Assembly: GCF_037042905.1 (NCBI RefSeq) | Contig: NC_087252.1 | Coordinates: 2,544,001 to 2,608,000, forward strand | From: Lytechinus pictus | Lineage: Eukaryota | Length of the DNA stretch: 64,000 nucleotides | Direction: 5' to 3' | In this document: positions 10,001 through 48,181 of the stretch, piece by piece | Position numbering within the stretch: the stretch's first letter is position 1 | Layout: every line of letters starts with the position of its first letter | Program-made: the position numbers and the translations under genes | Notes under the pieces: generated by a model | What the model was told of the DNA's origin: nothing | The model's input: the letters and a program-made list of their open reading frames with translations, nothing else | Databases searched by the model: none

Positions 10001-10084
10001 GGGGGGGGAGTAAGGAAAAGTAAATCATGCTCATTCGATATGTTGTGCTGCTGAATGGAAAATGGAATCATGTCTAAGCCCACT

Positions 10085-11290: not shown

Positions 11291-11314
11291 CCAATAGTCT
11301 TGTCTGATGCTTAA

Positions 11315-19758: not shown

Positions 19759-20688
19759 TCATGCTTTTTGTAAGAAGTGTGTTCTTGCCATATCAAATTC
19801 ACTGGTTGCATCCTTGTCCCGGGCATTCTTAATGCGCATCATATGGTTACTGACAGTCTTTGGGAGGGCACGGATGACACTTGATGGCGGATGGGTGGTT
19901 GTCTTCGCGGCTTTCATTGAGAATCCAGCCAGCCTTCGGCCCCCATACATGGAATGCTCGGTGTATTCAGAACTGGAGATGGAGTAGGAACGGGCATAGT
20001 AGCTCTGCTGGGTGGCATAGTCATTTGGCCTCCTTGCCGCTTTCTTAATGGCTTTCATGGCAATGTCATGTTCAGGTACTGTTGGCGGGATGTCAATGAT
20101 CAGAGGATCCGTAGCGGATGTGCTGTTTGCGTTGTTGGCATGGACACATCGCTTTGCTACATGTGCCGTGGTGATGTCAGGTTTCCTCGCATGCTGCATA
20201 GGTATGACTGTCTTTTGGATCACTGCTTGTGTTCTTGGGCTTGGTGGAACTCTGTTGTTTGGGGACGCTATCTTTGGGAGCGCCCTTTCCTTGACAGGTG
20301 GCCCTGGCTTACTGTACTGATGTTCCTTCTTGGGAGAGTTGTTCCCTCCTGATAGGCGAGGTGTTAGTGGTGTCTTCGGATTCCCATGGATTTCGCACAT
20401 CTGTTGCTGGCGTACACGTCTGACCGTTGCTGCAGCTCCGATGACTGCACGTCTTGTCTGCAGACACTTCCTCTGACAACACAATGCGAGTAACATGACC
20501 AGGATGAGAGCTACCACCACTCCACCAAGAATGATGGCCACCATTGTCACAGGGAGGCCGGTCTCGTTGAGTGACAGTGGTCTCGTTCTGACCTCCACAC
20601 ACTGGTCCCGAAGCACGGCATTGGTCTGGGTGTGGTTGACTAGAATGGTGCTGACACAGACTGTGTACTGGGAATCTGGCTCCAGGTC
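19759..20688 (-). CDS. Terminal coding exon of the same protein: end of FN3, transmembrane helix, cytoplasmic tail of about 240 aa
   Basis: Acceptor gtgtttttgcag|GAC, phase 0. The join gives the canonical FN3 string DFTLT|DLEPDSQYTVCV. TM segment MVAIILGGVVVALILVMLLAL is followed by CCQRKC; stop TGA at 19759-19761. Confidence 0.9.
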   Translation of the reverse strand, partial: DLEPDSQYTVCVSTILVNHTQTNAVLRDQCVEVRTRPLSLNETGLPVTMVAIILGGVVVALILVMLLALCCQRKCLQTRRAVIGAAATVRRVRQQQMCEIHGNPKTPLTPRLSGGNNSPKKEHQYSKPGPPVKERALPKIASPNNRVPPSPRTQAVIQKTVIPMQHARKPDITTAHVAKRCVHANNANSTSATDPLIIDIPPTVPEHDIAMKAIKKAARRPNDYATQQSYYARSYSISSSEYTEHSMYGGRRLAGFSMKAAKTTTHPPSSVIRALPKTVSNHMMRIKNARDKDATSEFDMARTHFLQKA

Positions 20689-21049
20689 CTGCAAAAACAC
20701 AAGAAAATGCACCAAAAGTGTCATTAGGCTCAGTGTATCTTGTATTTTTATATTGTCTTGAAATTAAAAACAAGGAACATTACAGGTAAACATAGCTGAC
20801 TGGAAGACCCATTAGAAGTAAACAGCAATGATTTCTAATTATCAAATTGTTAATGTTCAAGATACTCTGATTGGTTCATGTGGTTTCAACATATTTGTAA
20901 TGATACAAATATTCATATTAAAACTAGAATCCATACTATCTGAAATATGACCTATTGATTTCTCAAGATAGATGTTCCCTATTAAAAGGATGTATCAATA
21001 GAGCTACATATTTAGTAGTAATCTCAGAACACAATACTGCAAAGGTTTG

Positions 21050-21293
21050 CCTGCACATGACTTCCAGACTTTTTTCGTTATCCTAAGCCTTACGAACGAG
21101 TGAATGAGCCACTTATACTGGACTTAATAATTGTCTTAGTATTTAAATCAATATAGATTTATAAAAATATATATTTTCTTTAATCTTATTTATTTTAATC
21201 CAACAATGTTTATGAAGTCCAGTACTTGTTGGCTCATTCTTAAGGATTAGGTAACAAAAGCAGTCTGTTGGTCATGCGTTTGACCATGTGCAC
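21050..21293. repeat. Degenerate palindromic element
   Basis: tgcacatg...gaatgagcca...tactggactt vs aagtccagta...tggctcattc...catgtgca. Confidence 0.55.
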
Positions 21294-21706
21294 ATAATCC
21301 TATTGCAGTATTGCAATTTTTTTTACAGATATGTGATCAAGCCATCTCTAGGATTAAGACAAAATCCCTGGAGTGATTTAATCACCAAAGATCTGTTAGT
21401 TATAAAAACACAAAGATGGGGCCCCCATGGAAATCTCTTTTCATCTTCAAGAAGAAATGTTTCAGTTATTTTAAACTTTAGTGGAAATGATGAAGTGCAT
21501 GACCGTGATTCACGGATCACATTACCGATTGTGACACTGAAGGGGATGGTGTCCATTATAAGACAGTATGCAGTGATTGGTGGATAATGAGAATAAGTGA
21601 TGCCAGAGGAAGCCAGTTAGGAAACCCAGAGAAAATGTGTTTGACTTTGGAAGCAGAAAGACTTAAATCCAAACTTAATAAACCATTAGGAGTTCACCTA
21701 TAGGTG

Positions 21707-21945
21707 CGGAGGTGTTGTTGGTCAGTGGATAAGTCTGCAAACTTTGAAGTTTGAACCACAAATATCGGGGTTGAATTTCCTTCACAGACTGTCCTTTGTA
21801 GAGCATTTATCTGTCTGTACATTTGCAACTCTCCACCCAGGTTTTGACATTTTTAACGGGTAGGAAGTAAATCCTTGAATGCTTGAGCGTCTGAACAGGG
21901 AAGCCGTGCTAAAGCTGGCATTACCTTATGCAGTGCTTAGAAACA
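21707..21945 (+). mobile_element. Degraded tRNA-derived SINE
   Basis: tggtcagtggataagtct head, ctccacccaggt core and gcttgagcg...gctaaagc 3' part resemble the 15331 and 48985 copies. Confidence 0.55.
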
Positions 21946-24900
21946 TTGCACATGACATAATTCTACATAACATAATTGAGAATTCGGGCATCACACAGTG
22001 TTCTAGCTGTACACCCATTTTAGTGGTGGTAGCTATTTCACGGCATTTTGGGTTTTTTTCAGCCAGAGTTAGTGGTCTTAAATTCAAAAGTGAAGGAAGA
22101 TCAATGCAGTGGCAATCTCACAAATATTTGAAAATAAACTAATATTCATCAAATATAAGAATGTTTAATGCAAATTATGCAAACGAAATAAGATTAAAGA
22201 TGAAAATGAATACAAGTGCCATTCTTCTCTGCAAGGAGTTATTCAAAATTATTAACTTCAATTATAACTTATTATTTAAAATTAAAAGTGGACGGAAGCA
22301 GTGATTTTTTCATGATGAGTTGTGGTCAGAAATCTTCTGTGCCGGTTGCACCTGACCACTGCTGTCCATAGCTATAACACTGCACACAACAATATGAACA
22401 ATATGAACATCTACTAACTGCTGATAGAAACTTTCTCATATGTGAACCGACCCAATATGTTTCTGAGAGCTTCACATCCTCCTTGCTCTGAAAAGTGCAA
22501 TATTGAAACCTGTCATCAATTAACATGATAAGTTTCCATGGAAAATTTCCCCTCAGCCAATGGAATTTGATTTTACCTGTAGCTTATAACAGCTATTGTA
22601 ACTTTGTTGTATTTAGAATTTTGTGGAAATTGGCCCAATGTAATGATAATGATATATGCAGTGGTTGAGTTTGAACTTGAATGGAATACAAGGGCAAGTT
22701 TCCCCAAAACATTATCATGGGATACATTGTGGTGATCAAATATCCATGTGTTCATGATAAGGACAAACTGAATACATGTGTGACTTCGATAGACAACTTG
22801 ACAAGTTTGAAGATATAATAAGGAAGAGGGATGCACAGTAGTAATGGCCTTTTCCTGATATCCCATATGGTTTATGTAAATCAATAATATGAATAGACTT
22901 TCAGGGAACAGTGTTATTATCATTACAGTTATTGATATTGAGCATGTAGTTGGTTTTTATTCCATTTCTGTGTGGATACGGTTCTCAATCTTCATTTCAT
23001 TATTTATTTATTGAAACATCCTTTAACATTTATTTATTCTATTTATTCCATTCATTTATTATTTTTATTAAATTTCCATTCATATATCAATTTGTTTCTT
23101 ATTTTGGTATTTTCTTAGTTTATAAACACAAATTATCTTGTTATTTACTTTTGTATATCTCTCCATCAATTTTATGTTAGAAGTGTTTATTTTTATTGTA
23201 TATTTTAATTGTTTTTTTTTTCTTCAGAAAAATGATGATTTGAGAACAATAGCTCCAGACATCCTCTATAGCAAATAATATTGTCTGGACCCTCATTATT
23301 TTATTTCCAAACACAATTTGCACTATCCCACATGGTATTGGTTATAAGATCTGTTGATAAAAAAATCCTGTGCCAAAAATAACCAAACCATATTAATGAT
23401 TTTGTTGTCCAACACAGAGATTGCCTGTACTGTGTTTATTTTAAGGAATGATCCCCGCTAGGGACAAAGAAACAAAAGTTGTCCGTGGACACGTCATCTC
23501 GCCCGAAAATGACTTGTCCCGCGGAAGATTGAAAATGGCAACATTTCGCTGTGGGGTTCCGAAGAGGATGAGCCGTGTGGTCCCAAGCCGGCCTTTTTAG
23601 CGCTGTCAGAGGTTCTATGTTCCGTTGTCATGGTAACGGGAAGTTGTTGCTCAGTCAGTTGCTACTGAACCTGTAACCTGTCTGCAGCATTTAAAGGCCT
23701 CCTTGCCATTCTATTGTCAAATTCGTTTTCCCCTCCCGTGTTGTTAAGTCTGACAAGGTTTTGTAAATGGTAACTGTCATTAGTTGCATATTGGTTATAT
23801 CTTTTCTTGTTTGAAAGAAAGAAAAATGGAAAAATACCCCCCAAAAAGGGAAGAAAATTTGATTACCTGAACTACACATACATGAATTTGCTACATGTCA
23901 TGAAAATGTTTCAAGGGATTGAGGTACACGTGCATGGAATTTGGAACATGCTCAGTTGCTCAAAGCGTTATGAAAGAAAAACTTGTTTAAACATTCAAAA
24001 CTTGATCACAAAGTCATGAACTTGGGAAAAAAATGTTGAATTTAGGTTTAGTCAAGAGATCTTTTCTGCCTCTTTTAATACAAGATCAAGATCTTAAAGA
24101 TTGATTTTATGTTTCATAAACTTTGTCTATATATGTTCCCCCTTGTTATTTTTTTCTTCCTTTAATAATGAACACACTCATTTTGGGAAGTTGGTTATAT
24201 TTGAGCTTCAGTACTTTGTTGGTTTCACTTTCGGATCACCAATCTCGAGTATGAAGTGAAACACTTTTAATGATGCAGGCATGTATCCTCTCAAGGAAGT
24301 GCCCAACCGATTGACATTTACCAAATAAATCTGATCTTATTTTCTTGTCCTTTGCATGCACTCAACCCTGTAAGAAATAGACCTACCCATTTTAATCTCC
24401 AATGCTTTAAAGTGGATGCCTTATAAAGATTTCTCTCTTTTTTTAAAATCATTTCACAGATTTTCACGTGCTTGCACTATTTTGCAAACTTACCCCGAGA
24501 CTCTGGAAACAGTTTATTCATGAATTGCAGATTTGTAGTGATAAGAGTTCATTTCTAATATGAATACCTCTTTTTGCTTCCTCTGCCCTTTCACATTAGT
24601 CATTTATATATCATCTGCCTAGGAACATCTATGTTCTAAAATAGAGTAAATTGAAAATAGATACTAGATAGTGTTATGATAAGAACGATGGGTCAAATAA
24701 CCCTCAGTTTTCCAAGCAGTACATTTTTATTTTCTTCATAATATACAAAATGTTCAAGTTCAAAGAGTCATCCCAAAGTTGACTTTTGATGAAGGATATC
24801 ATCTGATGGCAACTGTATGCGTCAATCTCAGCCGACCCATGTGCACTAACTTGCTATTTATGAAATGACTTGCCATAAAGTTTCTGCCCATTGAATTTGT

Positions 24901-27900
24901 ATGCCTGTTACCATGGAAACAAGTGAATTTCTGAAACATTTTTTTATGCCTAATGATTTTTTTTTTCGACAGGAGAGTGTTTTCCTAACCTGCACAGGGT
25001 AGTTTTGAAGCTTTCAGAATGAATTATTTGAACATATTTCATGAATACCACCACAACTACCTCCATAGTCATCAATGGATATATGCTATGACCATCTTGT
25101 TTTTTCCTTTCCCTTTTCTCTCCTTATTTGGTATATTGTTTAAAATCATGAGTACGTTGTTCTCTACCCCCTCTCCCTGTAGTGCTGCAATGACGTTCTA
25201 GAATTTGTCTGATAATGTCTTTTGTTGTATCCAATTGCTATGCATTTTTGTATTCCAAACACACAAATGCAGTTTGAATATACCTTTTGCAGAACTTTGA
25301 AATATTTCCTGTAATTCCCCAAAACTACTAATCAACTTTGCTAGGTGAATTTTTCTTGATTTATGCCTTTGAACTGGAAGAAGCAATTAAGAATCGACAA
25401 AATTCATCTTGCAAAGTGATTCATCCCCTTATTCTGCGGATGGCCGTCTGGAATAAACGCTGACAAGCAAAATTAGATTGGTAGATAAAAATAGAGTGTC
25501 ACGTTAAGTTTATCAAAATTTTGTATTGCAGCATAGGGTCTGTAAGGAAACTTTGGAGACATTGAGGGATGTGGGTATATGCCCTCGAGAATACCAGAGG
25601 ACACTATTATTTGCAAAATATATATTTTGGTACAAGGGCAGCAAATATAGATGCAGATGTCAAATATAGATGTTGCGTCATACATCAAAATTAATGCATC
25701 TACTTGGTAAATATCCTGATTCATTATTGATTGACATTGGAGATAAATAAAAGTGAGATATTCAAATTGTTATAAAGAAGGCTAATACTTAAATCTTTTC
25801 ATGAAGGTGGTGATTTTCTTCCTGTAATCACGATGAAATGAATTGAGTTTGGGCTCTTAATTTACTTTCTATGATTATAACTTATGGTAACTTATTATGC
25901 ATGCAAATAATGAAGTATATAGATATTACTGTGATTATATTATTTTATCAAAAAATTAAGTAAATCATGATGTAGAAAATACAATTAAAATGAATCCAGG
26001 TTCTCCAAAGTTAAGCATTGGATTTGATTACATCATGCCATAGGTAGCCATGAGAACATAGATCTCTCAATCTAAAGAAGATGTAGATGTAGCGCAATAA
26101 AATAGTAATTATATTATTTAAGTTACAATATGCAATTGCTATGGACACTACACTAGCTTCTGCATCGTTCTGGGCACCCATTTATCACTTGGGTGTAGAG
26201 TGGCAAATCTCAGATTACTCCTTGCCAAAGGATGCTGGTGCCATGGTGGGATTCAATAATAACACATTAAACCATTTCCACTAATACCAGTTATAAGTAA
26301 TAAATACAAGAGCATTCTCTTAAGTTTATTATGTTATTAGTACATGGATATGTATAGCCCATCCTTTACTATCACCATACACAATTATATTGAACAAATT
26401 TGAGTCTGTGAAAACAATCTGTAAAAGATCTGTTTCTAGATGACATCGAATTCTCAATTGCCATATAGCTGATTGAGACATTAAAGTAAATGCATTTAGT
26501 TTTACCAAGATAGTGTTAACAATTTTCTTCAAAATGGCATGGATGACAAACAATGACTGTGCAAAGAGGCACATTAAGCAACCAAAGTGTTAATAGCAGT
26601 GCAGGGAAATGGGTTTATTTATATATTTATATATATATCATGATTTAATCCGGTATAATCCATCTTTGACCCTTGGTATTTGATTGTCATCCCCCTAGAA
26701 CCCCTTGTCTAGTGTTTGTTTTGCGGTAAGTTTGAGCTTGTGTCATTCACCAGGTATAAAACTCTAGCTGTGGTTTGGAATTATTTCCTTCCTTTCGCTT
26801 AAGTGGCCCCCTACTGGTATATATTTATATAGGGCTAGAGTAAATGCCTGATAGTGCATATATGCTGTTGTATTGTGTTCCCTTTATTATTATTATGCTG
26901 ATCGATCTCTTTGCAATTTATTGAAATTCTGCAGGACTTGAATTTCAATATATTTCAATATATTGAAAATATATTTTCAGGGCAATGCCACTTCAAAATA
27001 TGAAAAAGGGCACAGCAAATATCCTTGGCCAAAAAGAGGTGCATTGAGGACAATCAATAGGCCATCCACGGCCATGACCTTCGCTGACCTTGGATTATTT
27101 TAAGCTGTGATGCTCATTTCTGGCATGAAGACATCTGACTTTGCTTGTCAAAGTTTCATTTTTCTGTTTCTCTTATTTTTTTTCTTTGCACAAATTAATG
27201 TTTTTACCAAAGTTTGATTCCCATTTAATTAAGTATTGATTTAAAGGCATACAAACCGGCAGCCTTAAGTCCTTAACTGATATCTGGCCAGCTTCCTGAC
27301 CCATATTGCAACAAACTCAGCAGTGTAGTCTTGTAATATAGGCCGCCTTGAATTATACCAAACCGTATTGGTCACTTTGCTCCCCCTTTATTAAAGTATC
27401 CTTCTTCCATTTTAGATATGTTTTTAACAGTATTTTTCCATTTTGGATTGTCATTCATTTGATAATATTTCTGTTGTATGGTTTTGACATTTTATTTCAG
27501 CCCTCTAATTGCATTCTGCATGTATTTCAAAAATTAAAATATGAAAAGGAAGTTTTGACACCTTACATTTAACTTCCATTCATAGGGAAATGAGAATTGC
27601 AATGTCACTCTGTCAAATTTGAAAGAACATAAGTACCTCAATCCCGGCCATGCCCAGCCAAAGATTTGCGCTTCAATTTGTTATCCAATTTTCAAAGCCA
27701 CCATAATCAGATTTGGATCCATGGGGGAAGAAGGGTTATTTCCGTCTACCTTTTGCAGAGTCCATCTGTCAGTGGTGCGCCAGAAATATGATACATGTGC
27801 CTAGAATTGTACTTCAGTTCTGCAGCAGATGCTACAGTGACAATAGGTCAGTTTTAGATTACACACTAATCTAATTGAATGCAAGGGTCTTTGTAGCATG

Positions 27901-28357
27901 TGTGGATAGGACAGTCTACTTGGAATTCCCCTTTTCATATCTTGGAAATAATACTGCAATGCTTTTGTAGCACTCACGAGATGCCACTTCTTCCTCTTGG
28001 GTCACTACACAGTTCCTGCCAAGTGGAGGGTACAAGATGCCACTACGGACAGGTTACCGTTAAAAATAACATGCAGGGCCAAAGTTACTATTATGGTAAC
28101 TTTGCCATCCAATGGTAACTACCATGGTAACAACACTCATCAGCCAATCAGAATCAAGGATTCCATAATAGATACCATTGGATGACAAAGTCACTTGTAT
28201 GCAACTGGACCCAGATAAAGTTGACCCTTCTCCATGCCACCCAATTGAATGTAAAATACAACCATTGGTCTATTAATTAAACTTAATGTTATGTCCAAAG
28301 ATTCTGTCCAGAAGAGATTGGAAAAACGTGAAAGGAGAGTAGTAGGAGAGTACTTAC

Positions 28358-29461
28358 TGTTAATGTGAAATCAGCAACTGATGGATGAATGAATGGGCTG
28401 TAGAAAAAGGTATCATATCCAAACTTGTTGTACTGCACAATAAATCCTGATATCTCCTCATCAATTGCAGGAGGCACCCTCCAAGAAATGGATGCCCTCG
28501 TCGTTGCAACGGTATCAATGTTGATGTGCTGAGGAGGGGAGATGATGACCTCACAACGTTCGCCGAGGTAGAGATGTCGGCACTCGCATTTGAATCCTGT
28601 AAAAGGGTCGTTGGTGCATACCCCTCTATTTTGGCACGGATTTTGAGCACAGGTCATGTAAGGCCTCGAAGGAGTGGGGCCAGAATGTGGATGCCGAGGC
28701 ATTGTCGGTCGTCTGTTAGGCGGGGTACCGGGCCGTCTTGGGGTCGTGACCCTTGGACGAATTGGGTCAATGATGACAGGTCCTTGTCCACGTCCAGGGG
28801 TGTTCACACCTGGTGTGGATGGCCTATTGGGGCGGTTGACACCAACATGAGGGGATCGTGGAGTTGCTGGCGGACGTGGTGTCTGAGGTGGGCGTTGTAC
28901 CGGTGGTTGCACCGGTGGTCGCTGCACCGGTGGTTGCTGCACAGGTGGTCTGTTGACTGGTGGTCGTTGCACCGGTGGTTGCTGCACAGGTGGTCTGTTG
29001 ACTGGTGGTCGTTGCACTGGTGGTTTAAAAGGGTTGATTGGTGCTCTTCCGGTGTTGCCCGTCCCTGTGTTGGGGTTGGTACCTGGTACCACACCTGGTA
29101 CCCCACCAGGTTGCACTCGTGCCCCCGGCTGGTTCCCCACTCCTGGTCGGTTTGGTAACCAGGGGTTCCGTGGGGGCACCCGAGGAGGAGGAGGGGGAGG
29201 AGGATTCACTGGGATGCCACGATTAGCAGGGTGCATGGGATCACCTGGCAGAGGAAACCCTGGGAGTGGATAAAAACCGGGCATCCCAGGAACAGTAGGG
29301 TACGTCATTCCTACTGACGCCCAAGGGTCAAGAGGGTCTATGGGCGGTTGTACACCTTCAGACACAAACCCTCCATTAGGTGGAATATCCCCTATAAACT
29401 GTGCAGCTACCTGTAAACAAAGGTGTGTCAAGGATACAGTAACAAAAACTCTCATCTCCAT
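28358..29461 (-). CDS. Coding exon 1 of an uncharacterised type I membrane protein: signal peptide, Pro/Gly-rich region, EGF-like domain, N-terminal part of an FN3 domain
   Basis: Long GC-richer ORF. The ATG is in GCCATGG context with an in-frame TAA upstream, followed by a hydrophobic N-terminus (MEMRVFVTVSLTHLCLQVAAQ). It contains a six-Cys EGF (CAQNPCQNRGVCTNDPFTGFKCECRHLYLGERCE) and an FN3 start (SPPQHI...ASISWRVP...GFIVQY). Donor ACA|gtaagt, phase 0. An alternative acceptor (ttgtttacag|, exon from 29410) cannot be excluded. Confidence 0.9.
28887..29023 (-). repeat. Coding minisatellite with 15-bp units and a 45-bp higher-order repeat, encoding PPV(Q/N)(R/Q)
   Basis: PPVQRPPVNRPPVQQPPVQRPPVNRPPVQQPPVQRPPVQPPVQRPP in the translation. 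Confidence 0.9.
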
Positions 29462-30169
29462 GGCTATGTAAGTCTTTTACTAATACAGGGGAACACACTC
29501 TTGAGGATGTGGATGTTGATCTGATGCTTCCGCTCAAATTGTTTCCGAATCATTCAACGTAGCAGAGTTCTTATCAAGATCACCTTCACTTTTAGCGAAG
29601 TCAATAAGTCATGGATGAATGCATTGGGGTCCCTCACATCTGAATCATGGATGCAGGTTCATTCATCTAACTTCTGCAGCACTCCCAATTTAGCATGTAT
29701 TCCTACCCCACACTCAAGGAATCTTGATCATCTAACTTCCACTCCTGAGTACTTCACCAAGTCTGCCAAGGTACCTTAAACAGCTCAGCTAGAAAGACGG
29801 TACAGTTTGCACTGGCAACATTGCGATCAGATCCGAGTCTTTCACCAGACGTTTTCAAGCTCTCTCATCTTTCTAGCTGTAAAGCCTTCAATCTCTCGTC
29901 TTGCAGGGGCTGTTTTCTTCCTCCCGGGATAAACCAAATCAAACTTCTGACTCAGACGAAGTTATAGTTCCACTGCGTTGATTCCTGATTGTTGCTCTTT
30001 TGCTTTCTCTTCCTTCCCTTGGATGGCAGCACTCCTATCGCAATCATCGATCTTAGTCCCTGCTTGCTCGTCGAAAGTAGACGCTGCCTGCTATGGTGTT
30101 TCCAATTAGAGGATTATCCAATTCTTTGTTGGGAGGTTTGGAAGCAGTGATAATGATCTTTAGTTGAAC
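29462..30169 (-). other. Probable 5' UTR part of the exon carrying the EGF/FN3 gene start codon
   Basis: Strong minus-strand acceptor ttttgtctaccctctttacag| just above 30169. Composition stays repeat-free and GC-richer down to the ATG. A candidate upstream donor AAG|gtaagt lies at 31700. Confidence 0.4.
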
Positions 30170-32463
30170 CTGTAAAGAGGGTAGACAAAAATAGTGCATG
30201 AATTTCTCTGGATGCTTTGTGAAATTGAAATACATGTAGATGTGAATCTCAATTTTAGAATTGAATGTGTGCAATAACACGTGTTACAAGAAACTAAACT
30301 ACAGTCAACTGCCACTATGAATTTCAAATTTGCTATTTGATTTGAAATGATAGGTTATCAATTCAAATTTCTCAATGCTAGCCGAAGTAAAAGAGCAGTC
30401 GATGTTTCAAATTTTAAATAAAATGAAAGGATTCAAATTGATTTTTTTAATGTAGAATCAGTAACAGGTTTCTTGCAACATCCCTCCTTTTCAAAGATCA
30501 TTTGTTTTTGTTAATCGATTGTCTTCAGTTGCCAGTGAATCCAGTTGTATATACATGCATTTATCTTTTGACCTAATGTAACATTAATACTTCATTCACA
30601 CTACATGTAGTTATGATTGAATCTACCATTCTATTAAACCCGTTGAATACTGAATTGTGTGATTCCTATGAACTTTATACAGGTATCACCTGTTTCAGTT
30701 GGTAATGAGTTAAATACACTTCAGGATTTCCCCACTGCCAACATTAGGTAATCTTTTTTTACAACATTCACATTTTACATTCAAAGAAACACCAAAGGCC
30801 ACTTCAAGGTGGATGGAGATACAGCACATGGCATTGATTATGTATTTCATTAATATGTTTTCTTTTATATATCATTTATCAAATTATTAATTTTGGTTTT
30901 AATAATTAATTTATCATAAATTCAGTCATCATTCTAGTCTATATTCATCAAACAAACATGTTAAACCGTAAGAAAAATATTCCTCTCCATGCAGTCAGTT
31001 TTGGAAAAGCTGACCGATGTGGGATAAAGTATTGTAATGGAAATACAATCAATATTTCACTTGATAGAATGAATCATAATTGCCCTCCAAAATTGTGTGA
31101 GATGGAATCCTGCATTATTAAATTTAGTATCCTTTTGAGGTTGAAAACTATTTCCCAATGGGTATTTACCACAGACTTTTTGGCAGTGATAGTTTGTACT
31201 CGCGTGGCTTGCCAGAAACTCTGCTGAAGTTTAAAGACATCAATAATAATTTTCTATTTCAAGTATGCACTCTCAATTTTCACTGCCCTTGTCAATATTA
31301 TTTCAGTATACAGGAAAATACCTGTTTAAGTAGCTTAAATCAAGTGTTTAGTAGAGTAAGTTTGGGCAGTATCTCTAAAAATATTTGCTTCTTTATAAGA
31401 ATAATTTCCAAAATTCTTGCTCTTATAAGGTTCACCTTTATGCAATTTATTAAAATAAAAAAGAAATCATTTTTTAAAAATTAAATGTGTAAAAATACAT
31501 ATTAAACTTTGTGTTAGAAGATTTCAAAAATTCCAAAATGAAAAGGAAGGTTTGTAATGACCTTGAGGTAGTATTATAATGGACATTGGAAGGAATATTT
31601 AGTCAGTCAGATCACTCTGTTTTTGTTGTTACTGTTTTTAGGGTGTATATCTTGATTAAGAATGGTATATCAAACAAAAGTCAAAGTTAATCCACTTACC
31701 TTTAAATTGCATTATTTCCTTTGTTTATCACTGAATAGCTTTATCCTGTTTAAACTTCCTTCACAAGTGGTATCTTAATATTGAATTCAAATGAAATTAT
31801 TTCTTTCGATACAGTGTGATCAGCGTGATCAGCGCAGTTAAGGAGCTATGGGATAAGTTGTGGGTACAGGTGCCAGTCCTTCGATCTTAAACCAACGCAG
31901 TCACAGACTATCAGCTTGCTATTCTAAGCGTACAGCTCATATCCCCTCCTCGAGATCTTGCTCCTTCACGGTATGCCTTCAACCGATCAAATGATCTCCC
32001 TGTCGCCTCGGCAAAGAACCTTACTTGACCCGCACCAGAGCTCCCCCTGCCTCAGCTTCCTGCCTTCGATACTGAACCCCCCTCCTGGAACATGGACAGA
32101 CCGATCGTCTGCCCTGTCGGCGCATGCGTCACCTTTGAAGGAAGCGCATCATTGGATCGCTCCATGATGTGTCTTTAGGGGAGGGTTGGCGTGTTGGAGG
32201 GGAGGGGATGTCATGTTTATTTAAAGGTGGGTGGAGTTGGGTAATGTTTTCATCGTGTCCACCTACGTGAGGATCATGTGGGAGGCTATAGGCGATGTCT
32301 TCTTGAGTGATGGGCTGAAGATAGTCCAGTGGCCTTGGAGGGGTTGAACTGTGATTGGTCATTTAAGGCTATTTTCGTTAATAGACACCTACTTGATATT
32401 TAATTTTACAATGATTTTTTTTTTCTTTTCCCCTCATCTACTTCATCCAGCTTTCTTTCTTAA

Positions 32464-33037: not shown

Positions 33038-33099
33038 TTAATGCAGTATTTACTTCCAATCCTGTTAAATAGTTTTCATAAAAGTTAAAGGATAATTTG

Positions 33100-35177: not shown

Positions 35178-35390
35178 ATACTACTTCTACTACTAACTAC
35201 TACTACTACTACTACTACTACAACTACTACTACTACTTCTACTACTACTATTACTACTACTACTACTACTACTACTACTATTTCTACTATTACTACTACT
35301 CCTATTACTACTACTACTACTCCTACTATTACTACTACTACTACTACTACATGTACTACTACTACTACTACTACTTCTACTACTACTGAT
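35178..35390 (+). repeat. (TAC)n microsatellite
   Basis: Read directly. It explains the poly-Y, poly-T and poly-S ORFs. Confidence 0.95.
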
Positions 35391-38300: not shown

Positions 38301-40816
38301 TATGATTATCACAATGTTTTCAACTTCATTTGATTACAAAAGAGTATCTTACACGTTTTTTTTCTCCACAATCATGAAAATTTACCTGTTTTTTGGTAAG
38401 CTTTCACTTGCTAGGCATCATCATTGTAGCTGTAGTAGCTGTCGTATTGACGACAGTATGTTACACTCTTTCAAGGATTTGAATAAATCCTTATCAGATG
38501 TGAATTGGGGCCAGTCAAATATTTATTTTGAATATTAAGGATTAAGTTTTAAATCTCAAAAGATTTACATTCAAATCTTTTAGCTTTATACTAGAACATC
38601 CCACTTAAAAGGTTTATATCTGTATCTAATATTCAACTGCTCCATATTCACAGCTGATCTGGAATTACATGATTTTAAATCCTTGAAACTTTAATACTTG
38701 ATTTTCATATTTGTTTTTGTCACTCCAAGTAGAATGTCCCCCTTATTATCTCTGTTTCTTCCAAGTAAGCATAAGTTGTTTCAAAGGATCTCTTTCAAAG
38801 TGAAAAAAAAATGCTTGGCTTCACCAAACCTGTTGAGAATTCACTTGTATACATGGATTGCTTCATATTCTTCATTTCTTAGACATGAATGAATATTTCA
38901 AGAAATGTTGAAAGTATAAAAAATAATGTATTTATTGAGTATTCATAATAAGTAAGTATCAATGTTAAAGAGTGCTAATTTTGCTCTTTCAAAAGAATCT
39001 TTTAACAAGAACAGAAGAACATTGCTGGGCTTCACGAAACTAGTTCAAGACTTTATTTGTATACATTGCTTCATATTCTAAGAAAAGTTCCCAGGTTTTT
39101 TTTCCAAGTATCAGGAGAAAACCAGGTCACCTCTGAGGCTAACCTATCGCCCCTACGATCACCACACAGTAGCAAGCATCCGTGACGTTTAATTTTTACG
39201 AGTCAAAATTGTATTATGTCCTTCTGTAAGGCGATATTAGATATGAAAGGGGAAGTGTGAATTAAAGCATCTTAGACTCTGATCAATTGAGTGTATGAGA
39301 AGAAGAAGGGCATAACTACATCAAAACAGTTAAATAGCTATGGAGTGAAATTTTACGTGCTTTAAAGAGTTATTTTTGGGTACTGCTAGTTGCTCTGGCT
39401 GAGGGAAAGTGGGGGAGGAGGGGGATGGATAAGGCTTTTGATTTTTTCCCCTTTTAATTTCTTATGACTTATGGGGTGCCATACTCTGCTTCTAGTATCT
39501 GAAGTCAACAATATTTTTAACAGGAATAAATGGTGCTAGAATATTTTGTGTTGAACTAAAAGAAATAAACATTATAGATATGTACATGTTTGTAAAACGA
39601 TCTAGCTGCCAATCAAAACAAAATATTTACTTCTAAGCCAAGCAGATATGATGTTGATCCATTCCTGATTAAAACAATCACATGCTATGAATGGATGTCT
39701 TGGAGAAAAGATTATTACCTCTTTTTCATATATTTTATTTCATTAAACATACAATTGTTTAGGGGCAACATGGTGTGTGGTCGTCTTAAGGATATCATGA
39801 TGTCATCCAAAATTAATGACGAATGACTCAAAATCTGTTTTAGTGGACTTTGGACCTTCTATCTCCTAGAACCGTAAATTGCTTGGAGTACCCATCAGTT
39901 GTCGGAGATCAAAGACGCATAGGGGCTAAGTCGCAGGAAGTTCAAACCCTGGCGTTAGCCTGGACAATTGACGTAGGTTACCCTGCCCGTGATTGTGCAT
40001 CTTAAGTCCTCGCATATCGCCCCGGATTAAACTCTCAAGAACCTTTATATGAAAATAGCTCCATGATCACTCCATTTGCGTAGGTGTCTGATTAGATTGA
40101 TCATGCAGGCATCGGAGTTTGGGGTTTATTTTGACATATCAGTGACTCTCGACTTGACATCCGGAGGATTTGAAGAAGTTTGGAAGTGTCTTTGTCTTGA
40201 TCAGCTGGTGGTGATTGTTCCACCTGTCCATGGGTGCAAATGGGTGACCTCTATGTGACCCATTATTCTTACAGGTGTTAACTTAATCATGACCTGCGTC
40301 TTTGATACCGCTTGGTCATGACGAGTATTAACGTCATTTCAGTGCATTGCAATGAAATGATCGCTGATTGCTCATTGATTTTATTGTGGGCTGTATGATA
40401 GCACCACGGACACTGGACTTGAAACCACCCATTGTATGTAACTCTTTCATGTTGACAACTTAATTAAATTCCATCATTTGTTGCAAATATTGTCTCTGGG
40501 ATATGGAATCCATGAAGAAGATATTGAGACCATCTCTGGAAAAGCTCACATTTTGGTTAAGGCATAATTAATTAGCCACTTAATTTTGCCTAAAGAAAAT
40601 TCTCACAGGACTTATGGGACTGTTTTCAGACATTCTTACGTTTGCACACTGGCAAACCTAAGAAATATTTAGAAATACAACGTATTACTTTATCTGAGCT
40701 GCTGTTAAAAACAAAATTTTAACAGTCCAATAATATACTGGTGAAGGGGGGGGGGGTAGGCATAGAGTAATCAAAGAAAAATTTACAATTATGTTAATGA
40801 ATAATGATTCTTATCT

Positions 40817-40990
40817 CAGGGGTGTGAGAGTTCAGCTTTTTAGCTGATTTACGATTTTATTTGGTTTTGATTTTTCAGCTTAATTTCTGCTCATTTTAGT
40901 TTTTCTCTACATAAACTGTTAGAGCTCTTTCTTTTTCAGCACTCTTCGGCTTTTTTCAGATCTTTTTATTTGTGACCACTCACACCCCTG
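40817..40990. mobile_element. hAT-like MITE with apparent 6-bp TSD
   Basis: ttatct|caggggtgtgagag ... cactcacacccctg|ttatct. Confidence 0.75.
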
Positions 40991-42243
40991 TTATCTATTG
41001 ACCAAAATTAACAGTCTGGAATCTTTTTCTAAATCTTTAGTTCTACATTTTCGATTGAGGTTAAGTCCCTCACCACTCATAGTCTGGCATTGATTAATCC
41101 TATAGTTGTTACAATTTTACATCACTGCCACATTCATGCTGACTCAGACAGCAGAAGTAGTGCAATTTTACAACAGGCGGCAGTGACAAATTCTATCTTC
41201 ATTGCTTTGCCAAATTTTTTCCTTTTTTCACTGCTATTCCTCCTAATCCTTCTGATACAGCCTTAATCCAGCCTTATCACAAATTATTTTAAAAATTCAT
41301 TTGAAACTTGGAATTGAGCAATTGATTGTGATTGTTGGAATAATCGTTTTTATCCATTTGTAATGAGGAGGCATTGCCAAAGTGATAAGTCTCAATTCAT
41401 TCAATCTTATTTAGGGGCATTTAGGCTCTGATGTGAGGTTTAGGAGAGTGCCATTCCCATAAAAACAAAGTTGATTGAATTTTGAATTTATTAACAAACT
41501 TCATTCATTTGGCATGAATATTTTGTTTTAAAATATATACAATGATAACATAAAAAAAAAACATTCATAACTGTATGCCGTATAAATCAGTAACACATCA
41601 ATACATAGATTTCCATTAATATACAGAAGAGAAATGACAAATTGAAATTTAACATAAAGAAGGTGTAGCATAATGCAATATACACAAGTTATTTAATTAT
41701 CGAATACAAATCAGGAAGTAAATAAATGTCTAATGTTAGAGATATATCTTTGGTGATGGTGGCTGAATACTTGACAATTAGGTTTTGATGAACAAAATAT
41801 ATTTTCTAGACTACAAAAAATGACTAAAAAACTAATAAGAACATTTTGTCACAAACTTTGAAGGGGGACACTTATTTTAAAGGCATATTTGTACACAATG
41901 TAATGTTTTATTGTTTCTAGAATCATAATGTGACAGTAAAGTTATCAGTCAGAAATCATGCGCCAGTTTCACGAAGAATTACTCAATTTCACAAGAAGCA
42001 TTTTGACGTCAAAATATAGAGGAGGGATTATTAGTCACAAAGCCCTAACATACAGCTCATTCTTCATGTTCACATCAATTACCCTGGGAAGACGTAGTAC
42101 GTTTATTAGATGCAATTTGGGTCATCTTTTCACTCTTTTTCGTGATGTTTGTTCCTCAGATGCATCATTCAATTTCTAGCATTCTGTTCCTTCATTCAAT
42201 TATATTCAGTTCATGTCATAAAGCTTCATTATGTCTGTGTTAA

Positions 42244-42843
42244 GGGGATGGTTTGGGCTGAAAATAGTTATATCTAAATAAATAGAGTAAAATTCACAGA
42301 GCAAAATGCTGAAAATTTCATCAAAGTCAGACAACAAATAACGAAGTTATTGAATTATAAAGTTTATCAATATTTTGTGAAAATAGTTATATGCACATCA
42401 TCATGAATATTCATTAGGTGGGCTGATGATGTCACATCCCCACTTTCCTTTTTCATATGTTATTACATGAAATCATAAATGTTTAATTTTTTCATGCATG
42501 TGTAAATGATGTGTCTCCATTATGATGAAATAAGTTGTGGCAGTAAATAACTAATGCACTTCAGTTGTCAATCCAATTGTTTTAGTTCTTGGTAGAAAAT
42601 TTTGAATAAACCTAATTTCATATAATAAAATACAAAAGAACAAGTGGGGATATGACATCATCAGCCCACCTAATGAATATTCATAAAGACATACCTAGAA
42701 CTGTTTCACCGGAATAATGCAAATCTTAAACATTCAATAACTTTGTTATTTGTTATCCGATTTTGATCAAATTTTCAGCATTTTGCTTTGTGAATTTTAC
42801 TCTATTTATTGAGATATAAATATCTCCAGCCTGGACCATCACT
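42244..42843. mobile_element. Kolobok-like MITE with TTAA TSD
   Basis: TTAA|ggggatggt...aaatagagtaaaattcacagagcaaaatgctgaaaattt ... aaattttcagcattttgctttgtgaattttactctattt...accatcact|TTAA. Confidence 0.8.
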
Positions 42844-42920
42844 TTAAATGGTGGGATATTACAACTGATTTGCTTTCACACTGACATATTAGAATGAATT
42901 TCCCAGCCAGAGGACTCCTC

Positions 42921-43157
42921 GGTCCTGTCTTACAACGATTTGTGATTGATCCGATCAATTTCAACTATGGAAATCTATCAAATGAAAGCCATAATTTTTC
43001 CTCCAGGAAATTCTCAAAATGTCCTTTGTAAACAAAGCAGAGCACAGAAAACAACGATAAATGTAAACATTTTGGACAAACTTTAGCTGTTAGCATTGCT
43101 GGCTTTCCGTAGTTGCGATTGATTTGATCAATCGCAACTCTTTGTTAGACACGGTCC
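42921..43157. mobile_element. Degenerate MITE
   Basis: ggtcctgtcttacaacga..tgtgattgatc vs gatcaatcgcaactctttgttagacacggtcc. Confidence 0.55.
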
Positions 43158-43158
43158 T

Positions 43159-43317
43159 GGGGCCCGTTTCATTAAGGACTTGCAACTGTTGTAACCTTGC
43201 CATTATGGCAACTACCATGGAAGCCTTGATTTTGATTGGCTGCTGAGCCCTGTTACAATGGCAGTTGCCATTATGGCAAAGTTACAACAGTTACAAGTCC
43301 TTTATGAAACGGGCCCC
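43159..43317. mobile_element. Short palindromic MITE (GGGGCCC termini, Harbinger-like)
   Basis: ggggcccgtttcattaaggacttgcaactgttgtaac ... gttacaacagttacaagtcctttatgaaacgggcccc. Related relics at ~28076-28212, ~37250-37390 and ~52320-52400. Confidence 0.8.
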
Positions 43318-44084
43318 TGGTATTCTTTATTTTCAGCTAAGTCTGAAAGAACCTACTCTGACTTTGTTTTGAGACGTGGAGGCAAGTGTTCCATCTTACA
43401 TCTTTATCAAGAGAATACTTGCAGATTCAGTAAAAGCTGTGAGTCACTGTTTTGACTTCTGAAGATCATCCCATACACTGTTATGAAAACGGTAATTTGT
43501 TTGCCCAAGACCATTTGCACTCGTCCAAGAAATGAACAGAACTGAACTAGCCTCTTTCAAAGGCAGTTATTGACAAGATTTTCAAGTAAGTTCAAAACCT
43601 CAGAAGCATCAATTTCAGTTTTCTGGAAATTTGTATTTCATGGGTTCACATCAGCGATGGTGACTGTACATTATTTGTTTTATTTCTCCTTGCCGTCCAT
43701 ATCTGTATATCATTTTACAGTAAAAACCAGCAGTAGAATATTGAAACAATCAGAGACTAAAGTGTGCTGTTTGACCTTCCCTTAGAATGAATCAGCATGA
43801 TTTGAAGTCCTATCCAAAGTCATATGAAGATACACACATACACCTCCTTCTTTTTAATAATACATGTAGATTTGTTTCCTGTGATGAGTAAATAGGTATA
43901 AGATACCTGTATGGTCATTCACCTTTTATTAAACTTGACGTCATGCAAGGACTATCATTTTGTTGAAACTGTTAAGTTTATCCACCAAGCATAATGAGTA
44001 GAGGGGACATGAAACATCACAATGAATATACAAGTAATGATGATAATAATTGTAATTTGCAACTTTAAGATAGTGCTTAATACC

Positions 44085-44298
44085 TGGTGCTAAGTGCTGC
44101 ATACTATTACCCTGGCCTTAACATGGCTGCCCAGATCATTCCTACCTGGTGCCCATTTACTACACCTGAATGGAGAGTGGCAAATGCAGATAAATGACTT
44201 GCCAAAAGACACAAGTGCCACTTTCAGCTGCATGCGAACCCCATCCCTTGTGGTTCAAAGACTGGAGACTTAAGATATCCACTTAGCCACAGCACCCA
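44085..44298 (-). mobile_element. Degraded tRNA-derived SINE
   Basis: The minus strand starts gggtgctgtggctaagtggata (A box), then gggttcgc (B box-like) and the ctctccattcaggtgtagtaaatgggcacc core. Core fragments also at ~26165-26255 and ~45460-45510. Confidence 0.6.
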
Positions 44299-45008
44299 GT
44301 TGTCAATATAGTAATAAAAAATATTCATAAATTCAGTATTTGATTCTCCATCTAAATGGAGTACATGTATATGTATGTCAAATAGATATCAAACGTAATA
44401 AATGAAAATAAAAAAAAATCTACCCTCAGTAGCTAATCTATCCCCATTTAGCCTAGCTTTGCCTCATAGTCCCTCTTTATGAATCAGCAATTAATTCTTA
44501 ACCAGGGATGACTTTGTTGACGTCTACAATGGAGTGGTATGAAGGATCAAGTTCAAGCCTTATCTCCGCATTCCCCTTGGCGTAGGGATCGTCTTACAGG
44601 TAACTTCATCAGGGAATTGTTGCGATGATAGGTCCCTCGACCACAGGTGCATGGTGGTTTCTGATGGGTACTTCTTGTGCTTTTCAAAAAGGGAAGTACT
44701 TTCTATGCCCCTGGTAGAATGTATTTATTTGTCTTTGTAGAATATATTTTAATTTGTGATCAGCCACCTCAAAGAAAATGAAATTACTTTTCGGCTATTT
44801 ACAAAGAACCTTCCCTGGCATCTAATTGTTGGTTTGGTGTGGCTTGTCACATCATTCACTTTCTGATGTTTAATAAATTTAAAAGGTGAACAAAAATGAT
44901 CTTGTTGAAGCCTTGTCAGTCTTGTCCAAGTATCTCTTTCCTGTCTTCAAGTAGAAGTTTGATCAGTAGTTGATACGGTGAAAAGAATAATAGTCAAATA
45001 AACTCTTA

Positions 45009-45320
45009 GGCCCATATTCTGAAGTCAGGTTTAACTTAGACCATGGTCTAACTCTGTACTAAAATTATGGGAAGCCAAACGTTTTAAAATTTTGTTTACA
45101 GTGAATGCTTCTCATGTTTACTATGCTCTTTACTAATTCTTAAATGGTGAAGACAACTGTCATACTTGTCCTTTCCAGACAGTTAATAATGTATTGGGAG
45201 TCAAATTAGCTGATACATTGAACCTCTACCATTAGTGATTTATGTCACAACTGGCTTTCCATAGTTAAACCACCACTTTAAACCTGAGTTAAAGTTAAAC
45301 CCGACTGCAGAATATGGGCC
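45009..45320. mobile_element. PIF/Harbinger (Tourist-like) MITE, 312 bp, TTA TSD
   Basis: TTA|ggcccatattctgaagtcaggtttaac ... gttaaacccgactgcagaatatgggcc|TTA. Confidence 0.9.
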
Positions 45321-46426
45321 TTATTATGTGTATCTGTCTTGGTCAGGTTTCACTTTCTCAGATATGGCACATCATTGTTGCCCCATCTACACCATCACCT
45401 CCATTCAACTATTAAAGTATTTCAAGCAATGAATCTTGCAGGGATACCTATAGTTAGCTTCACCTGGGTAGAGTGTGGCAAATGAAGATCAATGTCTTTC
45501 AAAAGGGAATAGCGCGATTACTGGATTTGCACATCTTACCCTGTTATATGAATTCAAGAGAGTTGCCCACCAAAACATGATACTTTTCTATAGCCGGAAA
45601 AAAAATATGTGGGGGCTTGGGGCGATTTCTCTCTCCCCTCCCCCCCCCCCCAAATGATAAAACAGAGCCCTTGAAAATAAAGAGCCCTGGAAGTGCTAAA
45701 GCTTATCCAATGTTGCAGATTTACGTAGTAGGTTGTGAAAAGTTGCCTGCCAAAAAAAAAATATTGAAGAAAAATTGCCTGCTCTCCAGGGTTGCATAGG
45801 ACTGACCAATATTAGCCTACCCCTGTATTCTGATGTCATCAGTTTTTATAACGTATTTTGGATAATATGTTCTGAAGCATCAATGTTATGAACTGGTTTG
45901 TGATGATGACACTTGGCTGAACTCCCACCAAAAGTGAGAACTATTAGACAATACGACCACAGAGGGGGTTTTATCAACACCGCATCACTGAACGTTATGG
46001 AGAGCCACGACTCCTGGGACTTGGTAGAAGCTATCTTCCAGCCGTTGGTTGTTTCTTCTCCTTTATCTTAATTTCTGTTTTAGGCGGGTGATCGGATGTT
46101 CCTCTGGACAAAGTTAGGATGTGAATGTGTGTTATCTTGAATGCCATGACCGTCTTTGAAAGTGGGGCTCGTACTTTGGGGTAGTTTCGCTTTTTCTGGA
46201 AGGTGTCGGATTTGACAGGTGAGGTGAGAAACTGGGTTGTCGGAGTGTTGTTTGCATTTCAGCTGGCAGGGTTTGGGTAAGATGGAATAGTTTTCATGTT
46301 TTTTTTTCCTTTGAGGTTCGTTTGTTTTCTATGACGTACTTGCAAACTGTTTGTTGCAAACCAGCAATGACATAGTGGCATGTTGATGAAGAGATTATGA
46401 ATTTTCTTCAACTGCATGTGGGGATG

Positions 46427-46817
46427 TAGCCTATAATCTAGGCGGAGGCTGTAGTTATTGTCTTTGCTGTTATGCTGAACGCAAGATATATGTCTGATCT
46501 GGCGAAGACTATGCATTTGTGGCTGCGAAGCAACCACCGCCTATACACTCCCGTCTTGCTTTGGATGTTGTTTTTTATTATCGACCTTGAAATGACGCCA
46601 GTTTTTCGTACAAAAAATTTTCATGCATATGTATGAGAAGAAGTAAATCGGACCAATCAGAAATCAGTCTTTGCCAGATCAGACGTATCTCTTGCGTTCA
46701 GCATAACAGCAAAGACAATAACTGCAGCCTCCGCCTAGTAGTCTTCGCCAGATCAGACGTATCTCTTGCGTTCAGCATAACAGCAAAGACAATAACTGCA
46801 GCCTAGATTATAGGCTA
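46427..46817. mobile_element. TAG...CTA element with perfect 9-bp TSD (AcademH-like) and a duplicated right arm
   Basis: gtggggatg|tagcctataatctaggc ... gcctagattataggcta|gtggggatg. The ~70-bp arm occurs once on the left and twice inverted on the right. Confidence 0.88.
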
Positions 46818-46943
46818 GTGGGGATGAAGATGAAAATGATGGATAAACATTCATCTCCTCTCAGTAATAATGTTAATGGTAATGTTCATGCTGAAGATGA
46901 TGATGGTGAAAAAAAATTTTAGAGCGATAGTTGTGTTGACAGT

Positions 46944-46957
46944 GGTGATGATGATGG

Positions 46958-47000
<43 letters not shown>

Positions 47001-47165
47001 GATGATAACAATTGCATCGCAATGGTTATGATGATAATAGTGCGATGTAGTTTGGATTGATGATGATAATGGAAATGATGTTAATGATGATATGTGATAA
47101 TAATGATAATATACAATGATGATGATGATGACGGCTATGATGATGATGATGATGATGATAATGCT
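46944..47165 (+). repeat. (GAT)n microsatellite region
   Basis: Read directly. Confidence 0.9.
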
Positions 47166-47577
47166 TATGTTGATGTTGGTGATGTATATTTCATGGCTTA
47201 GGCTACCCTCATGATCTTACAATAACTTTATTTATTTTCCATTCTTAGATTGATATTTTGATTTATTATTAAATGATTTCTGTAATCATTTGGCAATCAT
47301 TCCTTGCAAACTCCCAAATATATCTAACTGTATCCAAATTCACATAGAAACATACTATATTTGTACCGCTCCCTTTCCTTTCTGCCCCCCTTTTGAGGTG
47401 TGATCCTACCCCATATGGATTTAATTAAAGGCCTACTTATAATTTTAATTAGGGGGTGTGACAAAGTTAGATAATTTTATCCCAGTGATTCAGAGAATGT
47501 GGGCCTGGATCAGGGGTATAATCAGGGGTATGTAGCTAGGGTGTGCCAAAAACGAGGTTGAATAATCCCTTGTCTGC

Positions 47578-47878
47578 AGAAGGGGAGGTATTGGGAGAGA
47601 GAGATAGGGAGAGGGGGTGAGAAAAAGAGAGGGAGAGAGGGGGGAGATGGAAGGAGCTAGATACAAAGAGAGAGAGGTCTAGAGGAGGAAGGGAAGAGGG
47701 ATGGAGAGACAGCAGAGAGGGAGAGAGAGAAGGGGTACATGTAGAGACGGAATGACTTTAGAAGAGTGTGGCAGAGAGGAGGAAAGGGAGAGGGGGTGGA
47801 GAGAATGAGAGGAAGAGAGGGGAGATGGAGAGAGAAGGGACAGAGGGGAGAGTAAGAGAGAGAGAGAGGGGGGAAGGT
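47578..47878 (+). repeat. GA-rich polypurine tract
   Basis: Read directly; it ends about 200 bp upstream of SIDT exon A. Confidence 0.85.
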
Positions 47879-48078
47879 ATAATGGCCTCAATATTGTCGT
47901 ATGTTGAAAATAAAATTATCCTTGCCTACTATAGGCTGAATATGCTTTGCCTATAAAAAAAAAAATTATAAAACCACTCTTAGTTTTAAAGCCAAATTAA
48001 AATCTTGGCCTGAAAGTTTGTCAATATTTTATTCTGCTATCAATCTTTTGTATTTATTTTCTTTTTTCCTTTCTGTAG

Positions 48079-48181
48079 GTCTTTGCATCAATTTACTTCT
48101 ACATCGTCTTTTTCTTTGTTCATATGCTTACCTGCCTTGGACTCAGTGCACAAATCTACTATATGGGCACCGTCAGGATTG
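48079..48181 (+). CDS. SIDT: SID-1/SIDT family transmembrane protein, internal exon A (VFASIYFYIVFFFVHMLTCLGLSAQIYYMGTVRI+D)
   Basis: Polypyrimidine tract and tag| acceptor (ttcctttctgtag|GTC); donor G|gtaggt; 103 nt, phase 0 to 1. The translation matches, from memory, the SIDT1/2 segment [28 protein letters not shown]. Confidence 0.9.

What the first reader, a model, noticed from the sequence alone, without database searches (positions are those of the whole stretch)
19759..48181. A complete receptor-like gene appears nested antisense inside a >48 kb intron of a SID-1/SIDT gene
Seen: the first SIDT exon I can find (48079) is an internal phase-0 exon roughly three quarters of the way through a SIDT protein. 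Scanning 1-48078 by eye I found none of the expected preceding motifs (FQFDTSFMY, RHPDINA). A complete EGF/FN3/TM gene lies in that interval on the opposite strand. Known: SID-1/SIDT proteins are multi-pass membrane proteins linked to RNA uptake, lysosomal RNA transport and lipid handling. Inference: this is a host/nested pair with fully overlapping sense and antisense primary transcripts, and so possible transcriptional interference or shared enhancers.
Basis: partly seen in the sequence, partly recalled or inferred. Interest (0 to 1): 0.75.

Follow-up and report, generated by a model that had tools for sequence, protein, structure and literature searches.

The report
Receptor gene nested in SIDT intron
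In this sea urchin genome a small membrane-protein gene sits backwards inside a 49-kb intron of the only SID-1/SIDT gene; such nesting is a common arrangement, and here it seems old and seems to make databases list the host as two half-genes.

Summary
Observation confirmed. The window lies in the genome's only SIDT gene (about 25 coding exons, 104 kb). The missing upstream exons end 902 bp before base 1. A GT-AG, phase-0 intron of 48,980 bp joins them in frame to exon 48079; it has no N and no SIDT-like exon. On the opposite strand it holds a single-copy gene with two coding exons (29461-28358, 20688-19759). The 677-aa product has a signal peptide, Pro-rich stalk, EGF, FN3, TM and a conserved tail, with relatives in sea star, sea cucumber and crinoid. 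RefSeq cuts SIDT into two 'genes' at exactly this intron in four sea urchin species; the nested gene has neighbouring accessions in two of them and shares the contig in all five species seen. The nesting therefore probably predates the Diadema/camarodont split (inferred, not aligned). The same intron is 0.3-0.6 kb in three other animals. The split is most likely an annotation artefact: two Diadema models are full length and the zinc site needs both halves. My one read-mapping call did not show the junction. Interference and shared enhancers are untested. An ordinary opposite-strand nested gene; low interest.

The parts
1..48078 (+). In-window part of the 48,980-bp SIDT intron (18th of 24 in my exon list; donor 902 bp upstream of base 1, at C8:2543099)
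28358..29461 (-). Nested gene, coding exon 1 (1104 nt): signal peptide, Pro-rich stalk, EGF, first part of FN3; phase-0 GT donor
   Evidence: single copy in genome
19759..20688 (-). Nested gene, coding exon 2 (930 nt): end of FN3, TM (residues 417-435), cytoplasmic tail with conserved C-terminal block, stop
20689..28357 (-). Nested gene intron (7,669 bp, GT-AG, phase 0)
48079..48181 (+). SIDT exon after the giant intron (first exon of the C-terminal half, inferred TM7)
   Evidence: single copy
59077..59150 (+). SIDT exon
62282..62328 (+). SIDT exon
62941..63046 (+). SIDT exon
63429..63539 (+). SIDT exon (two more follow beyond the window at C8:2608901-2609014 and 2609988-2610050)

Best explanation
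One full-length SIDT gene (signal peptide, extracellular domain, 11 TM) is transcribed on + from about C8:2505778 over about 104 kb. The 48,980-bp intron is spliced out like any other, giving a complete SIDT with its CREST-type zinc site. Inside that intron, on the minus strand and with its own promoter, lies an echinoderm type-I membrane protein gene (Pro-rich stalk, EGF, FN3, TM, conserved tail), probably a cell-surface receptor or adhesion molecule (inferred from domains). Shown: the DNA arrangement, both reading frames, single copy. Inferred: splicing of the long intron; that the gene entered an ancient short intron before Diadema and camarodont urchins split; that the intron grew further by transposons; and that RefSeq's two half-genes are an annotation failure at a long intron holding another gene. 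Any interference is a by-product, as for other nested pairs.
For: Canonical, phase-matched splice sites and an open frame over 11 exons. All 15 genome hits of the full-length D. setosum protein fall at this locus, collinear and non-redundant; 6 of 6 PF13965 hits likewise. The two RefSeq halves tile the Pfam model: 1-389 and 392-594 of 594. Two RefSeq models run through the junction: XP_072166533, 817 aa, and XP_071491365, 792 aa. The former aligns to human SIDT1 over 20-817 at E 3e-191. Human SIDT2 zinc ligands lie in TM4/TM5 and TM11 (PMC10272179, passages), and the matching motifs fall on opposite sides of the intron (552-556 and 781-785 against a junction at 612). Both halves are conserved against D. 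setosum: 84-88% N-side TM part, 75% C-half. The C-half models disagree on their start: three different extra first exons, or an internal Met. The same intron position exists at 0.3-0.6 kb in 3 of 3 other animal loci that span it.
Against: No junction-spanning read was seen: one search was swamped by repeats and printed only the best-supported loose ends. All 14 N-half RefSeq sequences retrieved, from four species, stop at this intron, including six L. pictus isoforms, so a real block to elongation or splicing is not excluded. The two full-length models are predictions whose RNA support I could not see. Conservation of the nesting rests on accession order and shared contig length, not on aligned genomes.
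Confidence: 0.8

Rival explanations
1. Nested as above, but regulatorily coupled. The nested gene's promoter or enhancer fires in both directions and makes a short SIDT transcript of the last seven exons (TM7-11), and/or collision ends many host transcripts early in the intron. Half-transcripts would then exist beside the full-length one in some cell types.
For: Precedent: C. elegans ceh-10 induces a short polq-1 transcript (PMC12274878, abstract and passages). RefSeq has separate C-half models in four species. Exon 48079 has an in-frame internal Met at which three models start.
Against: The C-half first exons differ between annotations (window 45997, 47555 and the homologue of 27981), and the 45997 exon has a non-consensus donor. 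Sense depth in bin 47200-47636, which holds the 47555 candidate, was 0.05/0/0 in three RNA runs (6% of each run read). The same precedent paper saw no clear short protein.
Confidence: 0.13
2. SIDT is truly split in these urchins: N-half and C-half are separate transcription units whose products assemble, or the full-length form is lost, and the EGF-FN3 gene lies between two genes rather than in an intron.
For: 14 of 14 N-half and 7 of 7 C-half RefSeq sequences retrieved are separate models, broken at this one position in four species.
Against: Intact phase-matched donor and acceptor. The tails after the junction are unrelated between genera, as expected of intron read-through. The C-half has no consistent start. 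Full-length Diadema models exist.
Confidence: 0.05
3. Assembly artefact: unrelated sequence was placed inside SIDT.
For: The intron carries long microsatellites and many repeats.
Against: No N. In L. variegatus the accessions run C-half XP_041471063, nested XP_041471064, N-half XP_041471065 on one contig; in D. antillarum nested and N-half are consecutive on a 2-Mb contig that also has the C-half.
Confidence: 0.02

Closest known systems
Opposite-strand nested genes in general (Drosophila: PMC3814207, PMC5174743; abstracts read)
   Same: A short gene with few exons inside a long intron of a larger host, on the opposite strand, which is the commoner orientation; nearly 10% of fly genes are in nested structures.
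   Different: This pair was not found in the literature searched; expression relation untested; nested genes are described there as typically young duplicates, whereas this one is single copy and echinoderm-wide.
C. elegans ceh-10 in polq-1 (PMC12274878; abstract and passages)
   Same: Opposite nested configuration in which a short host transcript could arise.
   Different: There a short host RNA and enhancer dependence were shown; here nothing of the kind is shown.
LRRTM genes in alpha-catenin introns (PMC3933685; search listing only)
   Same: A compact single-pass membrane protein gene nested in a large host intron and kept across a clade.
   Different: Other families, vertebrates; host here is SIDT.
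SIDT1/SIDT2 (PF13965; PDB 8jul and others)
   Same: Full-length collinear homologue, E 3e-191; zinc-site motifs present.
   Different: Single gene here; one intron expanded about 100-fold relative to three other animal loci; activity untested.
Vasorin/SLITL2-type LRR-EGF-FN3-TM proteins (name and architecture recalled; LRR-EGF-FN3-TM hits from amphioxus and hemichordates seen)
   Same: Membrane-proximal EGF-FN3-TM module, 26-30% identical in those hits.
   Different: No LRRs; a Pro-rich stalk follows the signal peptide directly; the C-terminal block is shared only among the echinoderm hits.

Membership tests
Opposite-strand nested gene pair | Whole coding sequence of the inner gene lies between two consecutive exons of the host | tested here: met
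   19759-29461 lies within C8:2543099-2592078; no host exon between
Opposite-strand nested gene pair | Opposite strands | tested here: met
   host +, inner gene -
Opposite-strand nested gene pair | Host transcript splices across the interval | tested here: inconclusive
   one search did not display loose ends at 48079; indirect support from splice sites and full-length Diadema models
Opposite-strand nested gene pair | Start and end of the inner transcript also lie inside the intron | tested here: inconclusive
   start not mapped; candidate acceptors near 29480 and 30170 imply a non-coding first exon; no unique minus-strand signal in 47200-60300, but expression of the gene in those runs is unknown
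SID-1/SIDT (PF13965) | Pfam SID-1_RNA_chan over cut-off across the model | tested here: met
   N-half 452 bits (1-389), C-half 230 bits (392-594), cut-off 28.7
SID-1/SIDT (PF13965) | Zinc-site residues (Ser/His in TM4, Asp in TM5, two His in TM11) | tested here: met
   motifs present in the exon translation and in D. setosum; positions from PMC10272179
SID-1/SIDT (PF13965) | RNA transport or lipid hydrolase activity | not testable with these tools
   needs an assay
Vasorin/SLITL2 | N-terminal LRR array (recalled) | tested here: not met
   no LRR in P0012, P0026, P0003, P0191, P0049, nor in the 150 longest non-repetitive intron ORFs
Vasorin/SLITL2 | EGF-FN3-TM next to the membrane (recalled) | tested here: met
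   EGF 271-301, fn3 308-383, TM 417-435
FNDC4/FNDC5 | Short ectodomain of one FN3, without EGF or stalk (recalled) | tested here: not met
   EGF and a 250-aa Pro-rich stalk present; Atlas score 0.84 is a lead only

The most novel reading that the evidence does not exclude
The nested receptor gene controls its host. Its promoter drives a divergent transcript of the last SIDT exons (TM7-11, with two of the three zinc histidines), while antisense traffic truncates the upstream transcript after TM6. Sea urchin cells expressing the nested gene would then switch from full-length SIDT to half-transcripts, either shutting the protein off or assembling it from two pieces. The arrangement would be conserved from Diadema to camarodonts, and RefSeq's repeated split would reflect real RNA.
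Probability: 0.1. Interest if true: 0.65.

Novelty: new member of a known kind. Interest (0 to 1): 0.25.

Why it matters
Practical: RefSeq lists SIDT as two partial genes in L. pictus, L. variegatus, S. purpuratus and one D. antillarum contig, so gene counts, RNAi-pathway surveys and expression tables for sea urchin SID-1 are probably wrong. Knock-outs or large deletions in either gene must allow for the other. Evolutionary: a datable nesting event into an ancient short intron, and an uncharacterised echinoderm membrane-protein family with a conserved cytoplasmic block. It would matter more only if half-transcripts controlled by the nested gene proved real.

Tried and rejected
(1) Upstream SIDT exons inside 32400-48078: rejected. 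(2) A second SIDT paralogue owning the 3' exons: rejected, all 15 hits are one collinear set. (3) Junction reads: (window 47200-60300, three raw RNA runs at about 6% each plus one contig set) was dominated by repeats near 49.0, 55.0-55.9 and 58.5-58.9 kb. It printed 24 of 1936 loose ends and 15 of 68 joints, none at a SIDT exon, so it is inconclusive, not negative. Sense depth in the bin of exon 48079 was 3.16/1.66/1.83 against antisense 0/0/0.08, but part of it is repeat-derived. (4) Intronic polyadenylation after exon 48181, suggested by reads running to about 48516: rejected, since 48220-48560 is a dispersed repeat (40 scored of 301 candidates, 87-95% identical). (6) Other genes in the intron: 0 of the 150 longest non-repetitive ORFs (58 aa or more) reach a Pfam cut-off, two sub-threshold hits. 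The 97-aa ORF at 21326-21616 has no Pfam hit and is not in the RefSeq protein. One weak Rfam tRNA hit at 6674-6744 was not confirmed by ARAGORN. (7) Single-sequence fold of the EGF-FN3 piece: pLDDT 38, unusable. (8) ESM Atlas: best 0.84 for EGF-FN3-TM; no usable hit for the tail. (9) Earlier findings: four look-ups returned nothing. (10) Literature: no paper holds any of six accession or locus ids of the nested family. The SID-1/sea urchin searches gave 3 and 0 papers; I read passages of one, with nothing on urchin SID-1, and saw the other two as listings. 'Nested genes' with echinoderm gave 2 unrelated listings. Supplements are not searched and I read none, so tables could mention this pair. 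(11) No dated Diadema/camarodont split was found in the passages read. (12) Nesting in sea star, sea cucumber and crinoid could not be tested: no SIDT accessions or genomes were reachable.

Full report
Verdict. It is a new example of a common arrangement. The additions from this work are that the nesting looks old within sea urchins, that RefSeq repeatedly breaks SIDT in two at this intron, and that the nested gene belongs to an uncharacterised echinoderm family. Splicing across the intron is inferred, not shown.

Where the window lies. It is G000:C8:2544001-2608000, on a 42,376,555-bp contig of an 812-Mb genome. The window and 80 kb of flanks contain no N. Proteins matching both genes carry the RefSeq name Lytechinus pictus and sit on a contig of the same length.

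The host. PF13965 hits 6 places in the genome, all at this locus on +. The full-length Diadema setosum SIDT hits 15 places (23 candidates scored), again all here and collinear. Eleven consecutive exons with GT-AG introns give an open 383-aa frame. The last exon is at C8:2609988-2610050 and the start at about 2505778. My list has 25 coding exons; the first 13 have approximate tblastn limits. The exon before the gap ends at C8:2543098, 902 bp before base 1, in phase 0; the next begins at window 48079 in phase 0. The intron is 48,980 bp; the next longest are about 14.0 and 10.9 kb. A SIDT profile finds nothing in it better than E 2.2.

The nested gene. Two coding exons on the minus strand (29461-28358 and 20688-19759, phase-0 intron within the FN3 domain) give 677 aa that match XP_054760242.2. 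There is a hydrophobic N-terminus (5-23), a Pro-rich stalk, EGF (271-301), FN3 (308-383), one TM (417-435) and a 240-aa tail. It is single copy: the other 23 of 24 genome hits are weak EGF-level matches, E 1e-5 or worse. Relatives occur in Strongylocentrotus and Diadema (88% and 68%), and in Holothuria, Antedon and Acanthaster (29-35%). They share the EGF-FN3-TM module where the sequence covers it (the Acanthaster record starts within FN3) and a C-terminal block of about 35 residues, weak in Antedon. The nearest named non-echinoderm hits with this module carry LRRs; this gene has none, so it is not filed as vasorin. A role as cell-surface receptor or adhesion molecule is inferred from the domains only. 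The transcription start was not found.

The annotation split. All 14 N-terminal SIDT models retrieved (L. pictus, L. variegatus, S. purpuratus, one D. antillarum contig) stop at this intron with tails unrelated between genera. Seven separate C-terminal models exist; six begin at or just before exon 48079, with three different extra first exons or an internal Met. Two Diadema models (817 and 792 aa) run through the junction. In human SIDT2 the zinc site uses residues of TM4, TM5 and TM11 (PMC10272179, passages). The matching motifs lie on both sides of the junction, so neither half has the site alone. The current L. pictus isoforms also lack exon 1, which lies beyond the 14-kb intron, which fits weak handling of long introns. 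I read the split as an artefact, but four species breaking at one place keeps a real half-transcript possible.

Conservation. In L. variegatus the accessions run C-half, nested, N-half (XP_041471063, 064, 065) on one 43.5-Mb contig. In D. antillarum nested and N-half are consecutive (XP_071487171, 172) with the C-half on the same 2.06-Mb contig. In S. purpuratus and D. setosum the genes share a contig length. This is indirect: no related genome could be aligned. Diadematoida and Camarodonta fall in different major clades (PMC9339218, passages); that their split is some 200 million years old is recalled, not sourced. A metagenome scan gave 5 SIDT loci from unnamed animals. In the 3 that span the site the intron is at the same position and phase but about 0.3, 0.3 and 0.6 kb long; the other two cover only later exons. 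The intron is thus older than its tenant.

RNA. No run on record as RNA was listed as holding the nested gene. The single read-mapping call, aimed at the acceptor, was swamped by repeats and showed no SIDT junction among the rows printed. A hint of intronic polyadenylation failed its control. Nothing here tests interference or shared enhancers.

Comparison. Nearly 10% of Drosophila genes are in nested structures, and fewer than expected are same-strand (PMC3814207, abstract). Nested pairs there diverge in expression, read as interference (PMC5174743, abstract). In C. elegans a nested gene can induce a short host transcript (PMC12274878, abstract and passages), which is the model for the novel case. 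The searches found no paper on this pair; supplements were not searched.

Scores. Best explanation 0.80; coupled half-transcripts 0.13; true split 0.05; misassembly 0.02. Novelty: new member of a known kind. Interest 0.25.

Noticed in passing
window -430..5935 (G000:C8:2543570-2549935): Young 6.4-kb element with 1.07-kb terminal inverted repeats (91% alike), 3-bp target duplications of type TWA in 4 of 4 copies examined and no ORF over 123 aa. A 98.9% identical full-length copy lies on C13, and internally deleted copies on C7 and C13. The target site resembles PIF/Harbinger (recalled). It sits 470 bp inside the SIDT donor and could fold back in the pre-mRNA.
   Followed up: partly
P0001/P0011, P0017/P0022, P0036/P0037: L. 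variegatus RefSeq has two near-identical copies of the whole SIDT-plus-nested block on one 43.5-Mb contig: an uncollapsed haplotype or a segmental duplication.
   Followed up: no
window 19762-19870, minus strand: The last ~35 residues of the nested protein are conserved from urchins to sea star and sea cucumber while the rest of the tail diverges; no Pfam or Atlas match. Likely a binding or sorting motif.
   Followed up: partly
G000:C8:2538663-2538759: Broken partial duplicate of a SIDT exon just downstream of the real one.
   Followed up: no
G000:C8:2490300-2493775 (L008): Two long overlapping ORFs of a LINE-type element (endonuclease- and reverse-transcriptase-like by eye) upstream of SIDT.
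   Followed up: no
G000:C8:2502270-2503307 (L007): 346-aa Thr/Pro-rich mucin-like ORF on + about 2.5 kb before the SIDT start.
   Followed up: no
G000:C8:2622404-2625039 (L006), minus strand: Coiled-coil-like exons of a convergent downstream neighbour gene.
   Followed up: no
window 48980-49200, 54850-55910, 58500-58900: Heavily transcribed dispersed repeats in the next SIDT intron, up to about 2,300-fold mean depth in total RNA, mostly from other copies.
   Followed up: no
window 6674-6744, minus strand: Weak Rfam tRNA match (40 bits), not called by ARAGORN; probably a tRNA-derived SINE head.
   Followed up: partly
L013:1403-1819: In an unnamed animal's SIDT locus the exon after the homologous intron is present twice in tandem.
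   Followed up: no
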